Positions 11,159-23,414 of a DNA stretch of 64,000 bases are shown here, one piece after another. Both the position numbers and the translations under genes were made by a program. This stretch comes from a virus. Lineage: Duplodnaviria > Caudoviricetes. Location: positions 24,763 through 88,762 of IMG/VR virus record IMGVR_UViG_3300037466_002533; one strand, 5' to 3'. The notes below the pieces were generated by a model that saw only the letters and a list, made by a program, of their open reading frames with translations, was not told the DNA's origin and searched no databases. Every line of letters starts with the position of its first letter. Within the stretch, counting starts at the first letter, position 1.

Positions 11159-11623
11159 TTAGTACCTTGCATTCCGACCGGAGATGAGCTGACCCCTTTG
11201 CGGGACGAAAGGCTTCCATAGCGGGATCATACCCGCCTCCTCCGGGGTACGGTCGCGCTTCTTGACGTTGCAGGTCTTGCAGGCGGCGATGGTGTTGGTC
11301 CAGGTGGACTTGCCACCCTTGGATACCGGGTGGACATGGTCTATGGTGTTGGCGGCCCCGCCGCAGTAGGCACACTTGTACTTGTCCCGCCGCAGCACGC
11401 CGGACTTACTCCAGACGATCGGCTTGGAGTAGAACCAGTCCAGCTTCTGGTACTTGATCAGGCGCATCGACAGCGGGAACGGAAACGGCCCGAAAGGGCG
11501 GTCCTCATCTACCTCATCGAACTCCGCCACGTTCCGGATGTACATGCGGATGGCGTGACCTGGAGTGACGTAGAGGATGGGTTCCATTCCGGCGTTCTTC
11601 ACCAGAACACTCTTGCGGGCCAC
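11159..11623 (-). CDS. HNH endonuclease (McrA-like)
   Basis: VLRRDKYKCAYCG...TIDHVHPVSKGGKSTWTNTIAACKTCNVKK. Confidence 0.92.
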   Translation of the reverse strand: MARKSVLVKNAGMEPILYVTPGHAIRMYIRNVAEFDEVDEDRPFGPFPFPLSMRLIKYQKLDWFYSKPIVWSKSGVLRRDKYKCAYCGGAANTIDHVHPVSKGGKSTWTNTIAACKTCNVKKRDRTPEEAGMIPLWKPFVPQRGQLISGRNARY

Positions 11624-11714
11624 GGGGATTCAATTCCCTTTCCTATCCGCCGCCCTCACACAAGGCGAACCTCATTCCTCTGAGGCATCCTATCAGAATA
11701 GGTCCAAAGAGATA

Positions 11715-12173
11715 TCAGATCTTCAGCGCTTCGAGGGCGAGAGAGTACTTGTTCATCAGTCGACTGCGGGTGGCCTCGTCCAGCCTGGCCAGTCTTTCAG
11801 GGTCGGTGTTGTGGGCGATGTCGGCCAACTTCACCAGGCGGGCCACCCGGTGATTCCTGACTCGGGCCCAGTACTTCTCGTTGGTCTCATCCGGAAGATG
11901 GGTCAGAATGAGCACCAATGTCACCACGTAGCTCGGGAACCCCTTGTCGAGCAGCGATATCGCAGCCTTCAGGCCGCCGCAGTCCTCGATGACGTCGTGA
12001 AGCCATGCCACAGCCTCCAGGAGGTCGATCTCCGGATCGTCCGCATGCCGCTCGCGCACGATCCTGGCCACGGCCTCGGGGTGATCGTAGTACGGTGCCC
12101 CCAGCTTGTCGGTCTGACCCAGATGAGACGATATGGCGAACTGCCTGGCATTGTCCACAAGAATGGAGTCCAT
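11715..12173 (-). CDS. HD-domain protein, RelA/SpoT hydrolase (MESH1/SAH)-like
   Basis: A..FA...H.GQ.DK.G.PY..HP..VA, AWLHDVIED, VKLADIAHN. Confidence 0.85.
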   Translation of the reverse strand: MDSILVDNARQFAISSHLGQTDKLGAPYYDHPEAVARIVRERHADDPEIDLLEAVAWLHDVIEDCGGLKAAISLLDKGFPSYVVTLVLILTHLPDETNEKYWARVRNHRVARLVKLADIAHNTDPERLARLDEATRSRLMNKYSLALEALKI

Positions 12174-12176
12174 CGA

Positions 12177-12704
12177 TCAATCGCCTTTCACGTTCAGCAC
12201 CTGACGAAGCTCGTGCTTGATCTCCACCAGATCCTCCTCATAATTGTTCGAGCGCTTCATTTCCTTAAGTAGATCGGAAACCCTCTTCGAGAGATCAACA
12301 TCCCTCGGATCTCTCCTCAGCAGCCTTCCCTTATCATCTCGCATCCTGGGAGGCCTATTATCGAACCAGAGTAGTGCCAGATCGGCCTGGTCTCGCTTCA
12401 GCACCAGGTACGGAAGCATATCACGTAACAACGACGCGGCCCCACAGCCACTGGTCTGATATATGTAGGCGCAGCGACGAGACTCTCTTTTCAACTCACA
12501 TATGGCTCCGTCGTACTTGTCACGGAGGTTATAGAATATCCGATCCACCTTTGGCGACCTATTCTGGGTTATCTGAACACGGAGTGTTCTACCAGTTCCT
12601 CCCCCGGCATAGGTGCCAATATTCCCCTCCCCATCGAAGAATCCGACAAGATAAGACATCTCAACACTAGTCGCCCTTGATGTTGACGATCTGTCTGAGG
12701 ACAT
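12177..12704 (-). CDS. Single-motif LAGLIDADG homing endonuclease fused to a duplicate RtcB C-terminus
   Basis: SYLVGFFDGEGNI, LRVQITQ, LLRDMLPYLVLKRDQADL; ends DLVEIKHELRQVLNVKGD; visibly more AT-rich than its neighbours. Confidence 0.88.
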   Translation of the reverse strand: MSSDRSSTSRATSVEMSYLVGFFDGEGNIGTYAGGGTGRTLRVQITQNRSPKVDRIFYNLRDKYDGAICELKRESRRCAYIYQTSGCGAASLLRDMLPYLVLKRDQADLALLWFDNRPPRMRDDKGRLLRRDPRDVDLSKRVSDLLKEMKRSNNYEEDLVEIKHELRQVLNVKGD

Positions 12705-13824
12705 ATCTCACCTCCACCAGATCAGAAGAGTCATTCATAACTACTTCGACGTCCTTGTAGGCGTCCGGGTGCTCGTCCAGGAAGGCATCGGACTCGCCCC
12801 AAGCGATGCCCTCCATGCGGGCGTCCAGGTCCTCCCGGGTGAATCTGGACTTGGCCTTCGAGCGGGAGTACTCCCTACCGGCACCGTGCGGTGCGGAATT
12901 GAAGGACGACTCGTTGCCAAGCCCCTGGACCACGTAAGAACGAGTTCCCATGGATCCGGGGATCAACCCCCACTGTCCGGGCTCTGCGTTGATCGCGCCC
13001 TTGCGGGACAGCCACACACCATCGCCCAACTTCTCGGTGTAGTTGTGATGGCAAGAGATGTCCTGACGCCACTGCACGAACTCCCGCCCCATGAACAGGG
13101 ACAGGGCGAAGGATACCCGGCCCATCATCTCGATCCGGTTGAGTAGAGCGAACTGCTGTGCCCAGTTGAGAGCTTCGATATAGGAGTCGAACTCGCTGGT
13201 TCCCTCCTCCAGATAGGCCAGGTCGCGATTCGGCAGTTTCTTGCCGTCGCAGAGCTTCTGAGCCACCTCGATGTGCTTCTGGGCCAGCCTGTTGCCCACC
13301 CCACGGGATCCGGAGTGCAGGAACATCCACACCCGGTCATCCTCGTCCAGGCTGACCTCGATGAAGTGGTTGCCCGAACCCAGGGATCCAAGCTGCAGCC
13401 GCCAATTGGGAGATACCTCCTCGGCCTGCTCGATGCCGGGGAGGGACTCCAGGGCGAAGATCCGGGAGGATTTGGCGCGGCCGGAGGGGCTGTTGTACTT
13501 CCCCGCCGACAGCGGGATATCCTTCGAGATAGCTGCATGCAGGACACGCAGATCGCCTGCGGCCAGCAGGTCATCGCGCCTGAACTGGGTCAACACCGCG
13601 TTCATGCCGCAGCCGATGTCCACACCGACGGCGGCAGGCATGATCGCGCCCATGGTCGGGATGACGGAGCCTACGGTGGCACCCTTGCCCAGATGGGCAT
13701 CCGGCATCAGAGCCAGCCAGGGCTGTACGAACGGCATGGAGGCGGTCTGGAAGGCCTGCTCCAGCGTCTGCGGCGCGATGATCGACGCCCAGTTGAGCAG
13801 CTTGTCGTTCAGGATCTGCATCAT
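12667..13824 (-). CDS. rtcB: RtcB RNA 3'-phosphate/5'-OH ligase (bacterial type)
   Basis: MPDAHLGKG, VGVDIGCGM, LGSLGSGNHFIE, LHSGSRG, CHHNYT, RKGA, IPGSMG, SAPHGAGR, DEHPDAYKD. Confidence 0.97.
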   Translation of the reverse strand: MMQILNDKLLNWASIIAPQTLEQAFQTASMPFVQPWLALMPDAHLGKGATVGSVIPTMGAIMPAAVGVDIGCGMNAVLTQFRRDDLLAAGDLRVLHAAISKDIPLSAGKYNSPSGRAKSSRIFALESLPGIEQAEEVSPNWRLQLGSLGSGNHFIEVSLDEDDRVWMFLHSGSRGVGNRLAQKHIEVAQKLCDGKKLPNRDLAYLEEGTSEFDSYIEALNWAQQFALLNRIEMMGRVSFALSLFMGREFVQWRQDISCHHNYTEKLGDGVWLSRKGAINAEPGQWGLIPGSMGTRSYVVQGLGNESSFNSAPHGAGREYSRSKAKSRFTREDLDARMEGIAWGESDAFLDEHPDAYKDVEVVMNDSSDLVEVRYVLRQIVNIKGD

Positions 13825-13831
13825 GCCCTAA

Positions 13832-13848
13832 ACGATAGCATATCTCTT
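13832..13848 (-). promoter_or_regulatory. Candidate leaderless promoter for rtcB
   Basis: AAGAGATA-TGC-TATCGT, with ATG 7 nt downstream of the -10. Confidence 0.5.
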
Positions 13849-13906
13849 AAGCAAAAGGCCCCTGCGCATTTGAGCATCGTGGAGAGGCTTGGCAGGGGCT
13901 CGGTTG

Positions 13907-13976
13907 CTGCCAGGGTAGGTGTCGAACCTACACCACGAGGGTCAAAGCCTCGCTGCCCTGCCGAGAGCACCTGGCA
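13907..13976 (-). tRNA. trnQ: tRNA-Gln(UUG), reduced D-arm
   Basis: Acceptor TGCCAGG/CCTGGCA, anticodon arm CGAGG-CTTTGAC-CCTCG, T-loop TTCGACA. Confidence 0.8.
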
Positions 13977-13981
13977 ATAGG

Positions 13982-22347: not shown

Positions 22348-22363
22348 CTGTTCAGCTATGTAG

Positions 22364-22437
22364 TGGCGGGGGCCAGATTCGAACTGACGACCTTCAGCTT
22401 ATGAGGCTGACGAGCTACCGAGCTGCTCTACCCCGCA
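22364..22437 (-). tRNA. trnM: Initiator-like tRNA-Met(CAU) lacking the three consecutive G-C anticodon pairs
   Basis: U1xC72 mismatch, fMet-like body GCGGGGTAGAGCAGCTCGGTAGCTCGTC; anticodon arm TCAGC-CTCATAA-GCTGA. Confidence 0.85.
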
Positions 22438-22629
22438 TTGATCTGGAGCCTTCCTTTACAGGGCGCTCCAGCATACCCCGGCCGCAGTGCGGTGATCTTC
22501 CGCAGTAACGGACTTTGATCGATGGCTTCGTCCCCAGATGCCTTTTCGCTAAGTGGCACCATGATATGGGGATAACCCAACCATCGATCCTCTTTGGTGT
22601 GGATTCTACACAGTTCGAACCCTAACCAG

Positions 22630-22698
22630 TGGAGGATACCGGAATCGAACCGGTCTAGGGACCGTGCAAAGGTCCCGTGATTTCCCAGATCATCCCCC
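22630..22698 (-). tRNA. trnA: tRNA-Ala(UGC), reduced D-arm
   Basis: G3:U70, A73, GGACC-TTTGCAC-GGTCC. Confidence 0.88.
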
Positions 22699-22801
22699 GG
22701 GGAACAGCTATTAAGTTAGGAACGTCACCACATGCCTACTAGGATAGCCAACATCAAAATGGATCTCAGCGGATCATCCTAAGCACTATTCAGTTGTCGA
22801 G

Positions 22802-22872
22802 CACCCCATGGCGGTTACGATCCGCCTCCGCCTGACTGAGAATCAGGAAGACTGCCATTATCCGAATGGGGC
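22802..22872 (-). tRNA. trnE: tRNA-Glu(CUC), A54/U58 T-loop
   Basis: CCTGA-TTCTCAG-TCAGG; T-loop ATCGTAA. Confidence 0.85.
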
Positions 22873-23046
22873 TTGTTGTGCCGGTCGAGCGGGCCTGGTA
22901 GGCGGCCAACCACCGGCACTAGGGTAGGAATCCGGACCCTATCCGGCCCTTCCCCCAGCCACTGCCGCCCCGGCTACCACCCCGGTTTAGCATTTCCATG
23001 GGAGCAGTTTATGTCGAAAGACGACAGTTCCATACTCCAGGGAACG

Positions 23047-23119
23047 TACACCCGGCAGGACTCGAACCTGCGATAAGCTGTGTGTAAAACAGCCGCCTTA
23101 GCCGCTAGACGACGGGTGC
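23047..23119 (-). tRNA. trnV: tRNA-Val(UAC)
   Basis: GCTGT-TTTACAC-ACAGC; A73. Confidence 0.92.
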
Positions 23120-23385
23120 AAGATTTGATGAGCTACTAAGCCTGGCCGGGTACCCTCGGCAACTGTCGGCTGTTCGCTCACTGGATCGCTGAGCCTCACC
23201 GCTCCCATCCGGCTCTCCAGACCCTGGTGAGGGGCCTCGGAGCTAACGTCTCTGTGAAGTTAGGTGCCCTGTTAGCCGGGGCCAGGCCCGGGACCGTTGT
23301 TACCCATTGTCCCGGAGCAGGGGCGGAGATTATGTGTGACCCTCACCCTCTCCGCTAGGTGAGGCACGTCTTGGTGATGTCTGAG

Positions 23386-23414
23386 ACTCTACACTAAAAG
23401 ATACGGTGGCGCAA
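23386..23414 (-). promoter_or_regulatory. SigA-like promoter heading the tRNA array
   Basis: TTGCGC-17 nt-TAGAGT with TATCTTTT in the spacer. Confidence 0.65.

What the first reader, a model, noticed from the sequence alone, without database searches (positions are those of the whole stretch)
11159..23414. Phage-encoded tRNA supply, surveillance and repair locus: 40 tRNAs + Ro60 + two Y RNAs + RtcB + HD hydrolase + HNH
Seen: one co-oriented ~12-kb unit holds tRNAs for all 20 amino acids, a full Ro60/TROVE gene, two YrlA-type RNAs, rtcB, a MESH1/SAH-like HD protein and an HNH nuclease. Established: in some bacteria rsr, yrl and rtcB share an RNA-repair operon induced by tRNA damage; RtcB seals 2',3'-cyclic-P/5'-OH breaks; SAH/MESH1 hydrolases can reverse toxSAS pyrophosphorylation of the tRNA CCA end. 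Ro/Yrl and RtcB have each been reported in phages. Inference: this combination is a layered counter-defence against tRNA-targeting immunity (anticodon nucleases, toxSAS) that replaces, binds, religates and unblocks tRNA ends. I do not know of this full set being characterised in a phage.
Basis: partly seen in the sequence, partly recalled or inferred. Interest (0 to 1): 0.9.

Follow-up and report, generated by a model that had tools for sequence, protein, structure and literature searches.

The report
Phage tRNA island with RNA-repair genes

Summary
Corrections follow.

- ARAGORN and Rfam support 35 solid tRNAs, plus three Ser tRNAs at a relaxed threshold and a D-armless Arg(UCU).
- The only Ala candidate is degenerate, so 19 amino acids are secure, not 20.
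- There are three Ro-linked RNAs, not two.
- Ro60 most likely starts at 21039.
- A LAGLIDADG homing endonuclease sits in the rtcB tail, next to the HNH gene. Both are probably selfish elements, not parts of the system.
- The HD protein is an Aph1-type (p)ppApp hydrolase.

New here: a strong orphan abiF RNA motif (13860-13896, 51 bits) lies between tRNA-Gln and rtcB. It is identical to an AbiF-linked copy in an Actinomycetes genome. Such orphans are common in phage tRNA arrays and occur in 68 cultured mycobacteriophages. This scan has found them before on other DNA.

Ro embedded in tRNA arrays is conserved. RtcB and the hydrolase are not co-conserved with Ro, and relatives carry Rnl1, a phosphoesterase and MazG at that position instead.

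Verdict: a mosaic RNA-damage counter-defence island, a new variant of a known kind.

The parts
21453..23119 (-). Upstream block of the tRNA array: Val-tac, Glu-ctc, a degenerate Ala-like element (22629-22695), Met, Gln-ctg, Met, His, Asp, Trp, Tyr.
   Evidence: ARAGORN; Rfam tRNA; the Ala-like cloverleaf is defective.
21322..21452 (-). Y RNA 1 (YrlA type). It has a closing stem plus a T arm, an acceptor-like hairpin and a D arm. It starts at the base after tRNA-Tyr.
   Evidence: Rfam YrlA 36 bits at 21355-21408; fold -50.1 kcal/mol, z -2.95.
21172..21311 (-). Y RNA 2 (YrlA type). Its T arm is what ARAGORN reports as 'tRNA-Arg tct 21240-21318'.
   Evidence: Rfam YrlA 37.1 bits at 21204-21272; fold z -2.26.
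21060..21132 (-). Minimal third Y-like hairpin without a tRNA domain. It shares the GGUGYG, GUUACUUC and UUAUAUC motifs with Y RNAs 1 and 2, and its outer stem co-varies with theirs.
   Evidence: Fold -29 kcal/mol, z -3.94, 0 of 200 shuffles as stable; sequence.
19378..21039 (-). Ro60 (TROVE) gene, 553 aa from GTG 21039. The longest ORF from TTG 21156 would overlap the third Y-like RNA.
   Evidence: Pfam TROVE; phrog_850 E 8e-45; PDB TROVE proteins 9l5y and 9kop E 4e-22; 38% identity to Streptomyces phage BRock Ro; GGAGG 6 nt before the GTG.
19270..19377 (-). Two very stable hairpins directly after the Ro60 stop codon. Possibly a terminator or a 3' stabiliser.
   Evidence: Fold -62.9 kcal/mol, z -7.7.
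13906..18626 (-). Main block of the tRNA array. About 29 tRNA genes, including three Ser found at a relaxed threshold and a D-armless Arg-UCU at 17698-17771. It also holds tRNA-like oddities at 13980-14053, 14206-14291, 16415-16509 and 17623-17694, and small ORFs at 15415-15636, 17358-17576 and 17856-18065.
   Evidence: Most of these tRNAs lack an encoded CCA.
13858..13899 (-). Orphan abiF-motif RNA (AbiFr-like). The hairpin starts 6 nt after tRNA-Gln(ttg) ends, is followed by UUUUGCUU, and ends 33 nt before the rtcB start codon.
   Evidence: Rfam RF03085 51 bits against a cut-off of 37, E 1.6e-6 on the whole window. Fold z -3.47. 37 of 37 identical to the Abi_2-linked copy in Actinomycetes MAG L125; 86% over 70 nt to the Frigoribacterium and Nocardia abiF leaders. 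No Abi_2 gene on the contig.
12667..13824 (-). RtcB RNA ligase, 385 aa.
   Evidence: Pfam RtcB 351.7 bits; phrog_1075; catalytic motifs present; 54-56% identity to RtcB of mycobacteriophages and corynephages.
12177..12704 (-). LAGLIDADG homing endonuclease (labelled HNH by PHROGs) inserted at the 3' end of rtcB. Its last 19 residues repeat the RtcB tail.
   Evidence: I-MsoI, PDB 3fd2, E 3e-9. LVGFFDGEGNI motif, tail duplication, and GC 0.46-0.51 against 0.62 in the rest of rtcB.
11715..12173 (-). Small alarmone hydrolase of the Aph1 type, 152 aa.
   Evidence: PDB 7smg E 3.3e-16 with residues 3-151 aligned; phrog_990 E 2e-43. The HD and ED motifs and the equivalents of Aph1 D24 and R119 are present (PMC10083569). 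No RelA_SpoT synthetase on the contig.
11159..11623 (-). HNH endonuclease, 154 aa. Probably a free-standing homing or selfish nuclease.
   Evidence: Pfam HNH_5 and HNH; phrog_16726; no homologue in the same place in relatives.

Best explanation
This is the RNA-maintenance island of a large contractile-tailed actinophage. It is a mosaic of independently acquired modules that together keep translation running when the host attacks RNA.

Shown by sequence:
- an array of about 39 tRNA genes;
- a Ro60 gene preceded by three tandem Y-type RNAs;
- an RtcB ligase with intact catalytic motifs;
- an Aph1-type adenosine 3'-pyrophosphohydrolase;
- a toxin-less copy of the AbiF antitoxin RNA, packed like a tRNA at the end of the array.

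Inferred mechanism:
- The array is transcribed as long precursors and cut by the host's tRNA-processing enzymes. This also releases the Y RNAs and the AbiFr-like hairpin as small RNAs.
- The phage tRNAs replace host tRNAs that are cleaved or blocked.
- The AbiFr mimic binds the host AbiF (Abi_2, HEPN) RNase and keeps it inhibited when the host's own antitoxin RNA decays.
- RtcB reseals the 2',3'-cyclic-phosphate and 5'-OH breaks left by HEPN and anticodon nucleases.
- The hydrolase removes (p)ppApp made by toxic alarmone synthetases, and perhaps the 3'-pyrophosphate they put on A76 of tRNA.
- Ro60 with its Y RNAs captures misfolded or damaged RNAs for disposal.

The HNH and LAGLIDADG genes are selfish passengers.
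For: Component identities.

abiF RNA:
- 51 bits.
- Identical to an Abi_2-linked copy in an Actinomycetes MAG, and homologous over 50-70 nt to the abiF leaders of Frigoribacterium, Nocardia and Streptomyces.
- In bacterial genomes, 53 of 87 motif copies are followed by an AbiF-like ORF and 0 of 122 lie beside a tRNA.
- In viral contigs, 4 of 43 have AbiF and 14 of 50 lie within 60 nt of a co-oriented tRNA. Both contrasts give p = 7e-9.
- Pfam Abi_2 is found in only 4 of 49 motif-bearing viral records.
- In mycobacteriophage MrMagoo the motif exactly fills the gap between tRNA-Gly and tRNA-Val, with RtcB 1.4 kb downstream.
- AbiF is a HEPN RNase neutralised by this RNA (bioRxiv 10.1101/2025.04.15.648962; PMC12737573).

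Ro and tRNA arrays: Ro lies inside or beside co-oriented tRNA genes in 10 of 10 IMG/VR relatives and in GiJojo.

Functional replacement: six genomes of the GiJojo lineage carry Rnl1 (PF09511), a metallophosphoesterase and MazG at the end of the array.

Other support:
- A CCA-adding-family enzyme is on the contig, and most tRNAs lack an encoded CCA.
- Some small alarmone hydrolases reverse pyrophosphorylation of the tRNA CCA end, and toxSAS occur in actinobacteria and their prophages (bioRxiv 10.1101/2021.04.30.441581).
- Phage tRNAs counter anticodon nucleases (PMC10264068, PMC11555353, PMC11464382).
- rsr, yrl and rtcB form a tRNA-damage-induced operon in Salmonella (PMC7790460).
Against: - No expression or activity data exist. 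The host is unknown.
- The genes are not co-conserved. RtcB is absent from all 11 closest Ro relatives and unlinked to Ro in the 2 of 8 other Ro phages that have it. The hydrolase is present in 2 of 15.
- Only 1 of 49 abiF-bearing viral records has RtcB, so the motif's position next to rtcB is probably incidental.
- Promoter and terminator scans are at chance level.
- The YrlA matches are below Rfam's cut-off.
- RtcB (710 records) and this hydrolase family (422 records) are common in phages without Ro or large tRNA arrays.
- The abiF hairpin with its U tract could simply be a terminator.
Confidence: 0.6

Rival explanations
1. This is a translation-autonomy and RNA-housekeeping island with no direct link to defence. 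The tRNAs match phage codon use or make the phage independent of host tRNA supply late in infection. Ro with its Y RNAs and RtcB handle by-products of massive tRNA synthesis, such as misfolded or nicked tRNAs. The hydrolase damps the host stringent response to keep macromolecular synthesis going.
For: - A near-complete tRNA set plus a CCA-adding-family enzyme fits general autonomy.
- Ro is consistently embedded in tRNA arrays whether or not repair genes are present.
- Codon compensation is the classical view (PMC10264068, introduction).
Against: - It does not explain the orphan AbiF-antitoxin RNA.
- The hydrolase has the (p)ppApp-specific signature rather than the (p)ppGpp one (PMC10083569).
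- (p)ppApp is chiefly a toxin product.
- Relatives hold T4-type Rnl1, the classical anti-anticodon-nuclease ligase, at the same position.
Confidence: 0.22
2. The clustering is an accident of genome architecture. The tRNA region is a permissive hot-spot where accessory genes and homing endonucleases accumulate, and each gene acts alone or not at all. The abiF hairpin is a captured fragment reused only as a terminator.
For: - Two homing endonucleases are present, one caught in the act at the rtcB tail.
- RtcB, the hydrolase and Ro are not co-conserved.
- The abiF motif rarely co-occurs with RtcB.
- A U tract follows the hairpin.
Against: - The 21 core positions of the abiF motif are invariant, and the stem changes in a compensatory way, across about 40 distinct viral copies. 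This argues for selection on more than a terminator stem. These copies were retrieved with the exact core as the search pattern, so their invariance is partly built in; only the MrMagoo copy, found by BLAST, tests the core independently.
- The same position is filled by analogous enzymes in six related genomes.
Confidence: 0.15

Closest known systems
Salmonella rsr-yrlBA-rtcBA RNA repair operon (PMC7790460; PMC4201824)
   Same: Ro60, tandem Y RNAs (one type with a tRNA-like domain, one minimal) and RtcB are encoded together. The operon responds to damaged tRNA.
   Different: Here there is no RtcA, and no RtcR was sought. Ro and RtcB are 5.5 kb apart, separated by about 29 tRNA genes. The locus is in a phage, with a tRNA array, an alarmone hydrolase and an abiF RNA added.
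Ro60 and YrlA in mycobacteriophages and other actinophages (Chen et al. 2014, PMC4201824; Gordonia phage VanLee, Streptomyces phages BRock and GiJojo)
   Same: Ro-like protein (36-38% identity) with Y RNAs directly upstream. VanLee also has two YrlA matches, one of which is annotated as tRNA-Arg. Ro is embedded in a tRNA array.
   Different: These relatives lack RtcB and the hydrolase. No abiF motif was found in the GiJojo or VanLee loci.
Streptomyces phage GiJojo lineage: tRNA array, Ro, Rnl1, metallophosphoesterase, MazG
   Same: Same order of functions: tRNAs, Ro, more tRNAs, then an RNA ligase and a phosphohydrolase, with an HNH gene nearby.
   Different: The enzymes are non-homologous: ATP-dependent Rnl1 plus an end-healing phosphoesterase instead of RtcB, and MazG instead of an HD hydrolase.
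AbiF-AbiFr type III toxin-antitoxin systems (RCd22 of C. difficile; PbAbiF complex, PDB 8VZ6; Rfam RF03085)
   Same: The RNA hairpin matches the family above its cut-off, with every invariant core base. It is identical to a copy that precedes an Abi_2 gene in an actinobacterium.
   Different: There is no toxin gene. The RNA sits at the end of a phage tRNA array, next to rtcB.
RNA mimics used by phages against RNA-controlled defences: pseudo-ToxI of phage phiTE against ToxIN, and RNA anti-CRISPRs made of solitary repeats (from my own knowledge, not checked here)
   Same: The phage carries the inhibitory or guide RNA of a host system without the protein partner.
   Different: The target would be AbiF. 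Delivery would be through a tRNA array. Nothing has been tested experimentally.
Aph1 (p)ppApp hydrolase of a Bacteroides prophage (PMC10083569; PDB 7smg)
   Same: 149-152 aa HD protein, alignment over nearly the whole length at E 3e-16, catalytic and specificity residues conserved.
   Different: Aph1 is the immunity protein of an adjacent (p)ppApp synthetase toxin. Here no synthetase is found on the contig, so the hydrolase is an orphan.
Phage T4 Pnkp and Rnl1 against the PrrC anticodon nuclease (as summarised in PMC10264068)
   Same: The phage repairs tRNA cut by a host abortive-infection nuclease.
   Different: RtcB seals 3'-phosphate or cyclic-phosphate ends directly, without separate healing enzymes.

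Membership tests
RtcB RNA ligase (PF01139) | Full-length match above the curated cut-off | tested here: met
   351.7 bits against a cut-off of 27, profile positions 1-426.
RtcB RNA ligase (PF01139) | Metal-binding and guanylylated-histidine motifs | tested here: met
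   PDAH, DIGCG, GSGNHF, HSGSRG and HGAGR align with Thermus RtcB 2epg.
Ro60 / TROVE (PF05731) | TROVE domain above the cut-off | tested here: met
   59.5 bits against 23, but only profile positions 277-354. phrog_850 covers residues 61-591. PDB TROVE proteins E 4e-22.
Ro60 / TROVE (PF05731) | C-terminal vWA domain with a MIDAS site | not tested
   No Pfam vWA match was reported. No structure was predicted.
YrlA Y RNA (RF02553) | Score at or above Rfam's gathering threshold | tested here: not met
   37.1 and 36 bits against 69. Only model positions 23-86 and 28-81 match.
YrlA Y RNA (RF02553) | Permuted tRNA-like domain (T arm, acceptor-like hairpin, D arm) | tested here: met
   Alignments; folds.
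YrlA Y RNA (RF02553) | 5' and 3' ends form a closing (Ro-binding) helix, and the gene lies next to Ro60 | tested here: inconclusive
   The closing stems are predicted only. Three copies share GGUGYG and YUAUAUC with co-varying outer pairs. All lie within 420 nt upstream of Ro. The same motif was not found upstream of Ro in relatives. Binding is untested.
abiF RNA motif (RF03085) | Score above the gathering threshold with the conserved loop and bulge sequence | tested here: met
   51 bits against 37. All 21 invariant columns of a 61-sequence alignment are present.
AbiF-AbiFr type III toxin-antitoxin system | Abi_2 (HEPN) toxin gene directly downstream of the RNA | tested here: not met
   The downstream gene is rtcB. 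No PF07751 match on the 88.8-kb contig at E<=1.
Aph1-type (p)ppApp hydrolase / small alarmone hydrolase | Single HD hydrolase domain of the RelA/SpoT type with catalytic H, HD and ED residues | tested here: met
   HD_4 27.3 bits against 27.2. 7smg E 3e-16. The motifs DHP, LHDVIED and KLADxxHN are aligned.
Aph1-type (p)ppApp hydrolase / small alarmone hydrolase | Specificity residues equivalent to Aph1 D24 and R119 | tested here: met
   D22 (GQTDK) and R127 align with them. The residues are named in PMC10083569. This rests on a pairwise alignment only.
Aph1-type (p)ppApp hydrolase / small alarmone hydrolase | Hydrolysis of (p)ppApp, or of 3'-pyrophosphorylated tRNA | not testable with these tools
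   Needs an enzyme assay.
Bacterial rsr-yrl-rtcBA operon | RtcA cyclase encoded with RtcB | tested here: not met
   No PF01137 match on the contig. No archease either.
LAGLIDADG homing endonuclease | LAGLIDADG motif and similarity to I-MsoI and I-CreI | tested here: met
   LVGFFDGEGNI motif; 3fd2 E 3e-9, with I-CreI variants at weaker E-values.

The most novel reading that the evidence does not exclude
Phage tRNA arrays serve as expression and processing chassis for RNA decoys. Host tRNA-processing enzymes would cut out not only tRNAs but also a toxin-less AbiF antitoxin RNA, Y RNAs and other tRNA look-alikes. In this window those look-alikes are a permuted tRNA domain at 14206-14291 and a D-armless Arg-UCU. 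These RNAs would bind and disarm host RNases, with RtcB and an adenosine 3'-pyrophosphohydrolase as back-up repair. The AbiFr mimic would be a new class of RNA anti-defence. It would be the counterpart, for the ancestor of Cas13, of RNA anti-CRISPRs, and it is present in 68 cultured mycobacteriophages.
Probability: 0.4. Interest if true: 0.8.

Novelty: new variant of a known kind. Interest (0 to 1): 0.6.

Why it matters
Each protein here is of a kind already known in phages, and the idea that phage tRNAs, RNA ligases and TROVE proteins counter RNA-targeting defences is published. Two things are added.

First, one small locus combines supply (tRNAs), sealing (RtcB), possible unblocking (an Aph1-type hydrolase), surveillance (Ro with three Y RNAs) and a probable inhibitor RNA for a HEPN abortive-infection toxin. 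Related phages have non-homologous enzymes in the same positions. That is the kind of replacement expected when function, not ancestry, is under selection.

Second, the orphan AbiF-antitoxin RNA links tRNA arrays to RNA-based anti-defence. I found no paper on this in my literature searches. Because the same element occurs in cultured mycobacteriophages of Mycobacterium smegmatis, the idea can be tested directly with standard phage genetics.

Tried and rejected
- Near-identity DNA search of the whole locus against phage records gave only short RtcB matches. The phage has no close cultivated relative.
- I tested whether the abiF motif is generally linked to RtcB. It is not: there is no RtcB near the motif in 50 viral loci, and RtcB occurs in 1 of 49 records.
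- I tested whether RtcB or the hydrolase travels with Ro. They do not.
- I looked for the window's Y-RNA closing-stem motif upstream of Ro in relatives and found nothing. The motif is lineage-specific, or the stem is conserved only as structure.
- Promoter and terminator scans and direct-repeat scans (which returned only T-arm similarity) gave no evidence on transcription units.
- The PHROGs label 'HNH' for ORF 12177-12704 was rejected in favour of LAGLIDADG.
- GiJojo's 'RNA ligase' is not RtcB but Rnl1, and its 'phosphoesterase' is not related to the HD protein.
- The supplement of the paper that defined the abiF motif is not held.
- The tRNA-Ala call was rejected as a functional alanine tRNA.
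- I ran no structure predictions or large protein searches, because the sequence matches were already decisive.

Full report
**Where the window comes from.** The window is bases 24763-88762 of an 88.8-kb IMG/VR virus record that CheckV rates about 59% complete. It has about 60% G+C. It encodes a tail sheath, a baseplate wedge, a tape measure, a primase and a DnaB-type helicase, so it is a contractile-tailed phage. Its RtcB is closest to those of mycobacteriophages and corynephages, at 54-56% identity. Its Ro60 is closest to those of Streptomyces, Arthrobacter and Gordonia phages, at 36-38%. No cultivated phage is close at the DNA level. I read it as an uncultivated actinophage of unknown host.

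**Checking the observation: proteins.** All features lie on the minus strand.
- RtcB (12667-13824) matches Pfam RtcB over its full length at 351.7 bits. It keeps the metal-binding and guanylyl-histidine motifs.
- The TROVE gene is real. Its longest ORF, from TTG 21156, is probably too long. A GTG at 21039 follows GGAGG by 6 nt, and homology to other Ro proteins begins near there.
- The HD protein (11715-12173) barely passes Pfam HD_4. It aligns nearly end to end with the solved (p)ppApp hydrolase Aph1 (7smg, E 3e-16). It also matches the hydrolase domains of Rel, SpoT and MESH1.
- The HNH gene (11159-11623) is clear.

**Checking the observation: Y RNAs.** Two matches to the YrlA model lie immediately upstream of Ro. 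They score half of Rfam's cut-off and cover only the tRNA-like core. Each region folds into a closing stem around a T arm, an acceptor-like hairpin and a D arm.

**Checking the observation: tRNAs.** ARAGORN reports 37 tRNAs.
- One of them (Arg-tct, 21240-21318) is built from the T arm of the second Y RNA.
- A relaxed threshold adds three Ser tRNAs that fill their gaps to the base.
- The same threshold adds one 'Ala' element. It has A3-U70, an acceptor mismatch and a vestigial D arm, and Rfam does not see it.
- So about 39 tRNA genes for 19 secure amino acids.
- Most lack an encoded CCA. The contig encodes a CCA-adding-family enzyme outside the window.

- (a) A 73-nt hairpin at 21060-21132 lies between Y RNA 2 and the likely Ro start. 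It shares the GGUGYG, GUUACUUC and UUAUAUC motifs of the two Y RNAs, and its outer stem co-varies with theirs (z -3.9). Another first-stage note on this genome suggested it, and I confirm the fold and the motifs.
- (b) ORF 12177-12704 is a LAGLIDADG homing endonuclease (I-MsoI-like). Its last 19 residues duplicate the RtcB tail. Its G+C is 0.46-0.51 against 0.62 in the rest of rtcB. It is an invader at the 3' end of rtcB, as another note proposed.
- (c) Most important, Rfam finds an abiF RNA motif at 13860-13896, at 51 bits against a cut-off of 37. It lies 9 nt after tRNA-Gln(ttg) and 35 nt before the rtcB start codon, and a U-rich tract follows it.

**What the abiF RNA is.** In bacteria this motif is the RNA antitoxin of AbiF, an Abi_2-family HEPN RNase of abortive infection (RCd22 in C. 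difficile; AbiFr in the PbAbiF complex). The sources are bioRxiv 10.1101/2025.04.15.648962 and PMC12737573. The phage contig has no Abi_2 gene, and the gene downstream of the motif is rtcB.
- I scanned public collections with the invariant 23-nt core.
- In bacterial genomes, 53 of the 87 copies with enough flanking DNA are followed by an AbiF-like ORF. None of 122 copies lies beside a tRNA.
- In viral contigs, only 4 of 43 are followed by AbiF. 14 of 50 lie within 60 nt of a co-oriented tRNA. Both contrasts give p = 7e-9.
- The outer stem changes by compensatory substitutions while 21 core positions stay invariant. These copies were retrieved with the exact core, so the core invariance is partly a product of the search.
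- The window's copy is 37 of 37 identical to one in an Actinomycetes MAG that precedes an Abi_2 ORF.
- It is also homologous over 50-70 nt, flanks included, to the abiF leaders of Frigoribacterium, Nocardia and Streptomyces. This is the only similarity between the phage and those loci.
- In the phage database the element occurs in 81 records, 68 of them mycobacteriophages, almost always unannotated.
- In MrMagoo it exactly fills the gap between tRNA-Gly and tRNA-Val in a 21-tRNA array that ends with RtcB.

I found no paper describing orphan abiF RNAs in phages. Other agents of this scan have reported the same thing on other DNA.

**How the parts relate across phages.** Ro is embedded in or beside co-oriented tRNA genes in all 10 IMG/VR relatives and in GiJojo. 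Gordonia phage VanLee has two YrlA matches upstream of Ro, one of which is annotated as a tRNA-Arg.
- RtcB is absent from the 11 closest relatives. It is present but 50-60 kb from Ro in 2 of 8 other Ro phages.
- The hydrolase is present in 2 of 15, both large Streptomyces phages, about 5 kb from Ro.
- RtcB alone is found in 710 phage records and the hydrolase family in 422.
- So the full set is unusual, but it is not a conserved module.
- On the other hand, six genomes of the GiJojo lineage carry a T4-type Rnl1 ligase, a calcineurin-type phosphoesterase and a MazG pyrophosphohydrolase at the end of the array, where this phage has RtcB and the HD hydrolase. Analogous but unrelated enzymes in the same slot suggest that RNA end-repair and nucleotide-pyrophosphate hydrolysis are what is selected there.

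**The hydrolase.** The aligned residues include the equivalents of Aph1 D24 and R119. The Aph1 study identified these as conferring specificity for (p)ppApp over (p)ppGpp (PMC10083569). (p)ppApp is made by toxic alarmone synthetases. Related toxins, including PhRel of mycobacteriophage Phrann and CapRel of M. tuberculosis, put a pyrophosphate on the 3' adenosine of tRNA, and some small alarmone hydrolases remove it (bioRxiv 10.1101/2021.04.30.441581). No synthetase domain is on the contig, so the hydrolase is not an antitoxin of a phage-borne pair.

**Verdict.** The interpretation as a counter-defence kit is plausible and is strengthened by the orphan antitoxin RNA and by the non-orthologous replacements. 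The picture of a single integrated, co-conserved unit is not supported. The nucleases are selfish elements, and nothing is known about expression. The kind of system is known (PMC7824862; PMC4201824; PMC7790460), so this is a new variant. Its most novel and most testable component is the tRNA-array-borne AbiFr mimic.

Noticed in passing
window 14206-14291 (-): An 86-nt element with a T arm, a capped acceptor-like hairpin and a D arm in permuted order, closed by a short stem. It resembles the tRNA-like core of YrlA without a Ro-binding stem. Rfam YrlA gives only 17.6 bits, and the fold z-score is -1.4.
   Followed up: partly
window 17698-17771 (-): tRNA-like gene with an Arg UCU anticodon, no D arm, a long variable arm and an encoded CCA. 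Rfam tRNA gives 36.3 bits. The next element (17623-17694) folds as a cloverleaf with a CCG anticodon loop but an over-long anticodon stem.
   Followed up: partly
window 19270-19377 (-): Two exceptionally stable hairpins directly after the Ro60 stop codon (-62.9 kcal/mol, z -7.7). One has about 22 nearly perfect pairs and no U tract.
   Followed up: partly
window 12177-12744 (-): A LAGLIDADG homing endonuclease gene overlaps the end of rtcB and ends with a copy of the RtcB C-terminal 19 residues. The low-GC segment includes the tail that rtcB now uses.
   Followed up: yes
contig G000:C1:1571-1969 (outside the window, minus strand): A 488-aa ORF with a PolyA_pol (CCA-adding / tRNA nucleotidyltransferase family) domain. 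This fits the fact that most phage tRNAs lack an encoded CCA.
   Followed up: partly
L054 (mycobacteriophage MrMagoo) 788-1131 and 1731-2148: The MrMagoo tRNA array also holds a tmRNA (101.5 bits) and a GOLLD RNA (182.4 bits). Neither appears among the features annotated for that stretch.
   Followed up: no
L003 (Gordonia phage VanLee) 9785-9856; L002 (GiJojo) 9796-9870: The 'tRNA-Arg' genes annotated just upstream of Ro in these phages are probably Y-RNA tRNA-like domains. In VanLee a YrlA match overlaps the annotation. In GiJojo the Rfam tRNA model does not match it.
   Followed up: partly
window 22438-22800 and 23120-23568 (-): Long spacers in and ahead of the array with no ORF of convincing codon bias. 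The first folds more stably than shuffles (z -3.2). Another first-stage note proposes a 245-nt structured leader RNA at 23128-23373.
   Followed up: no
window 18633-18875, 18958-19269, 23569-24033, 24035-24505, 10799-11137 (-): Small ORFs with phage-like codon bias around Ro and at both ends of the locus. None has a Pfam, PHROGs or NCBIfam match.
   Followed up: partly
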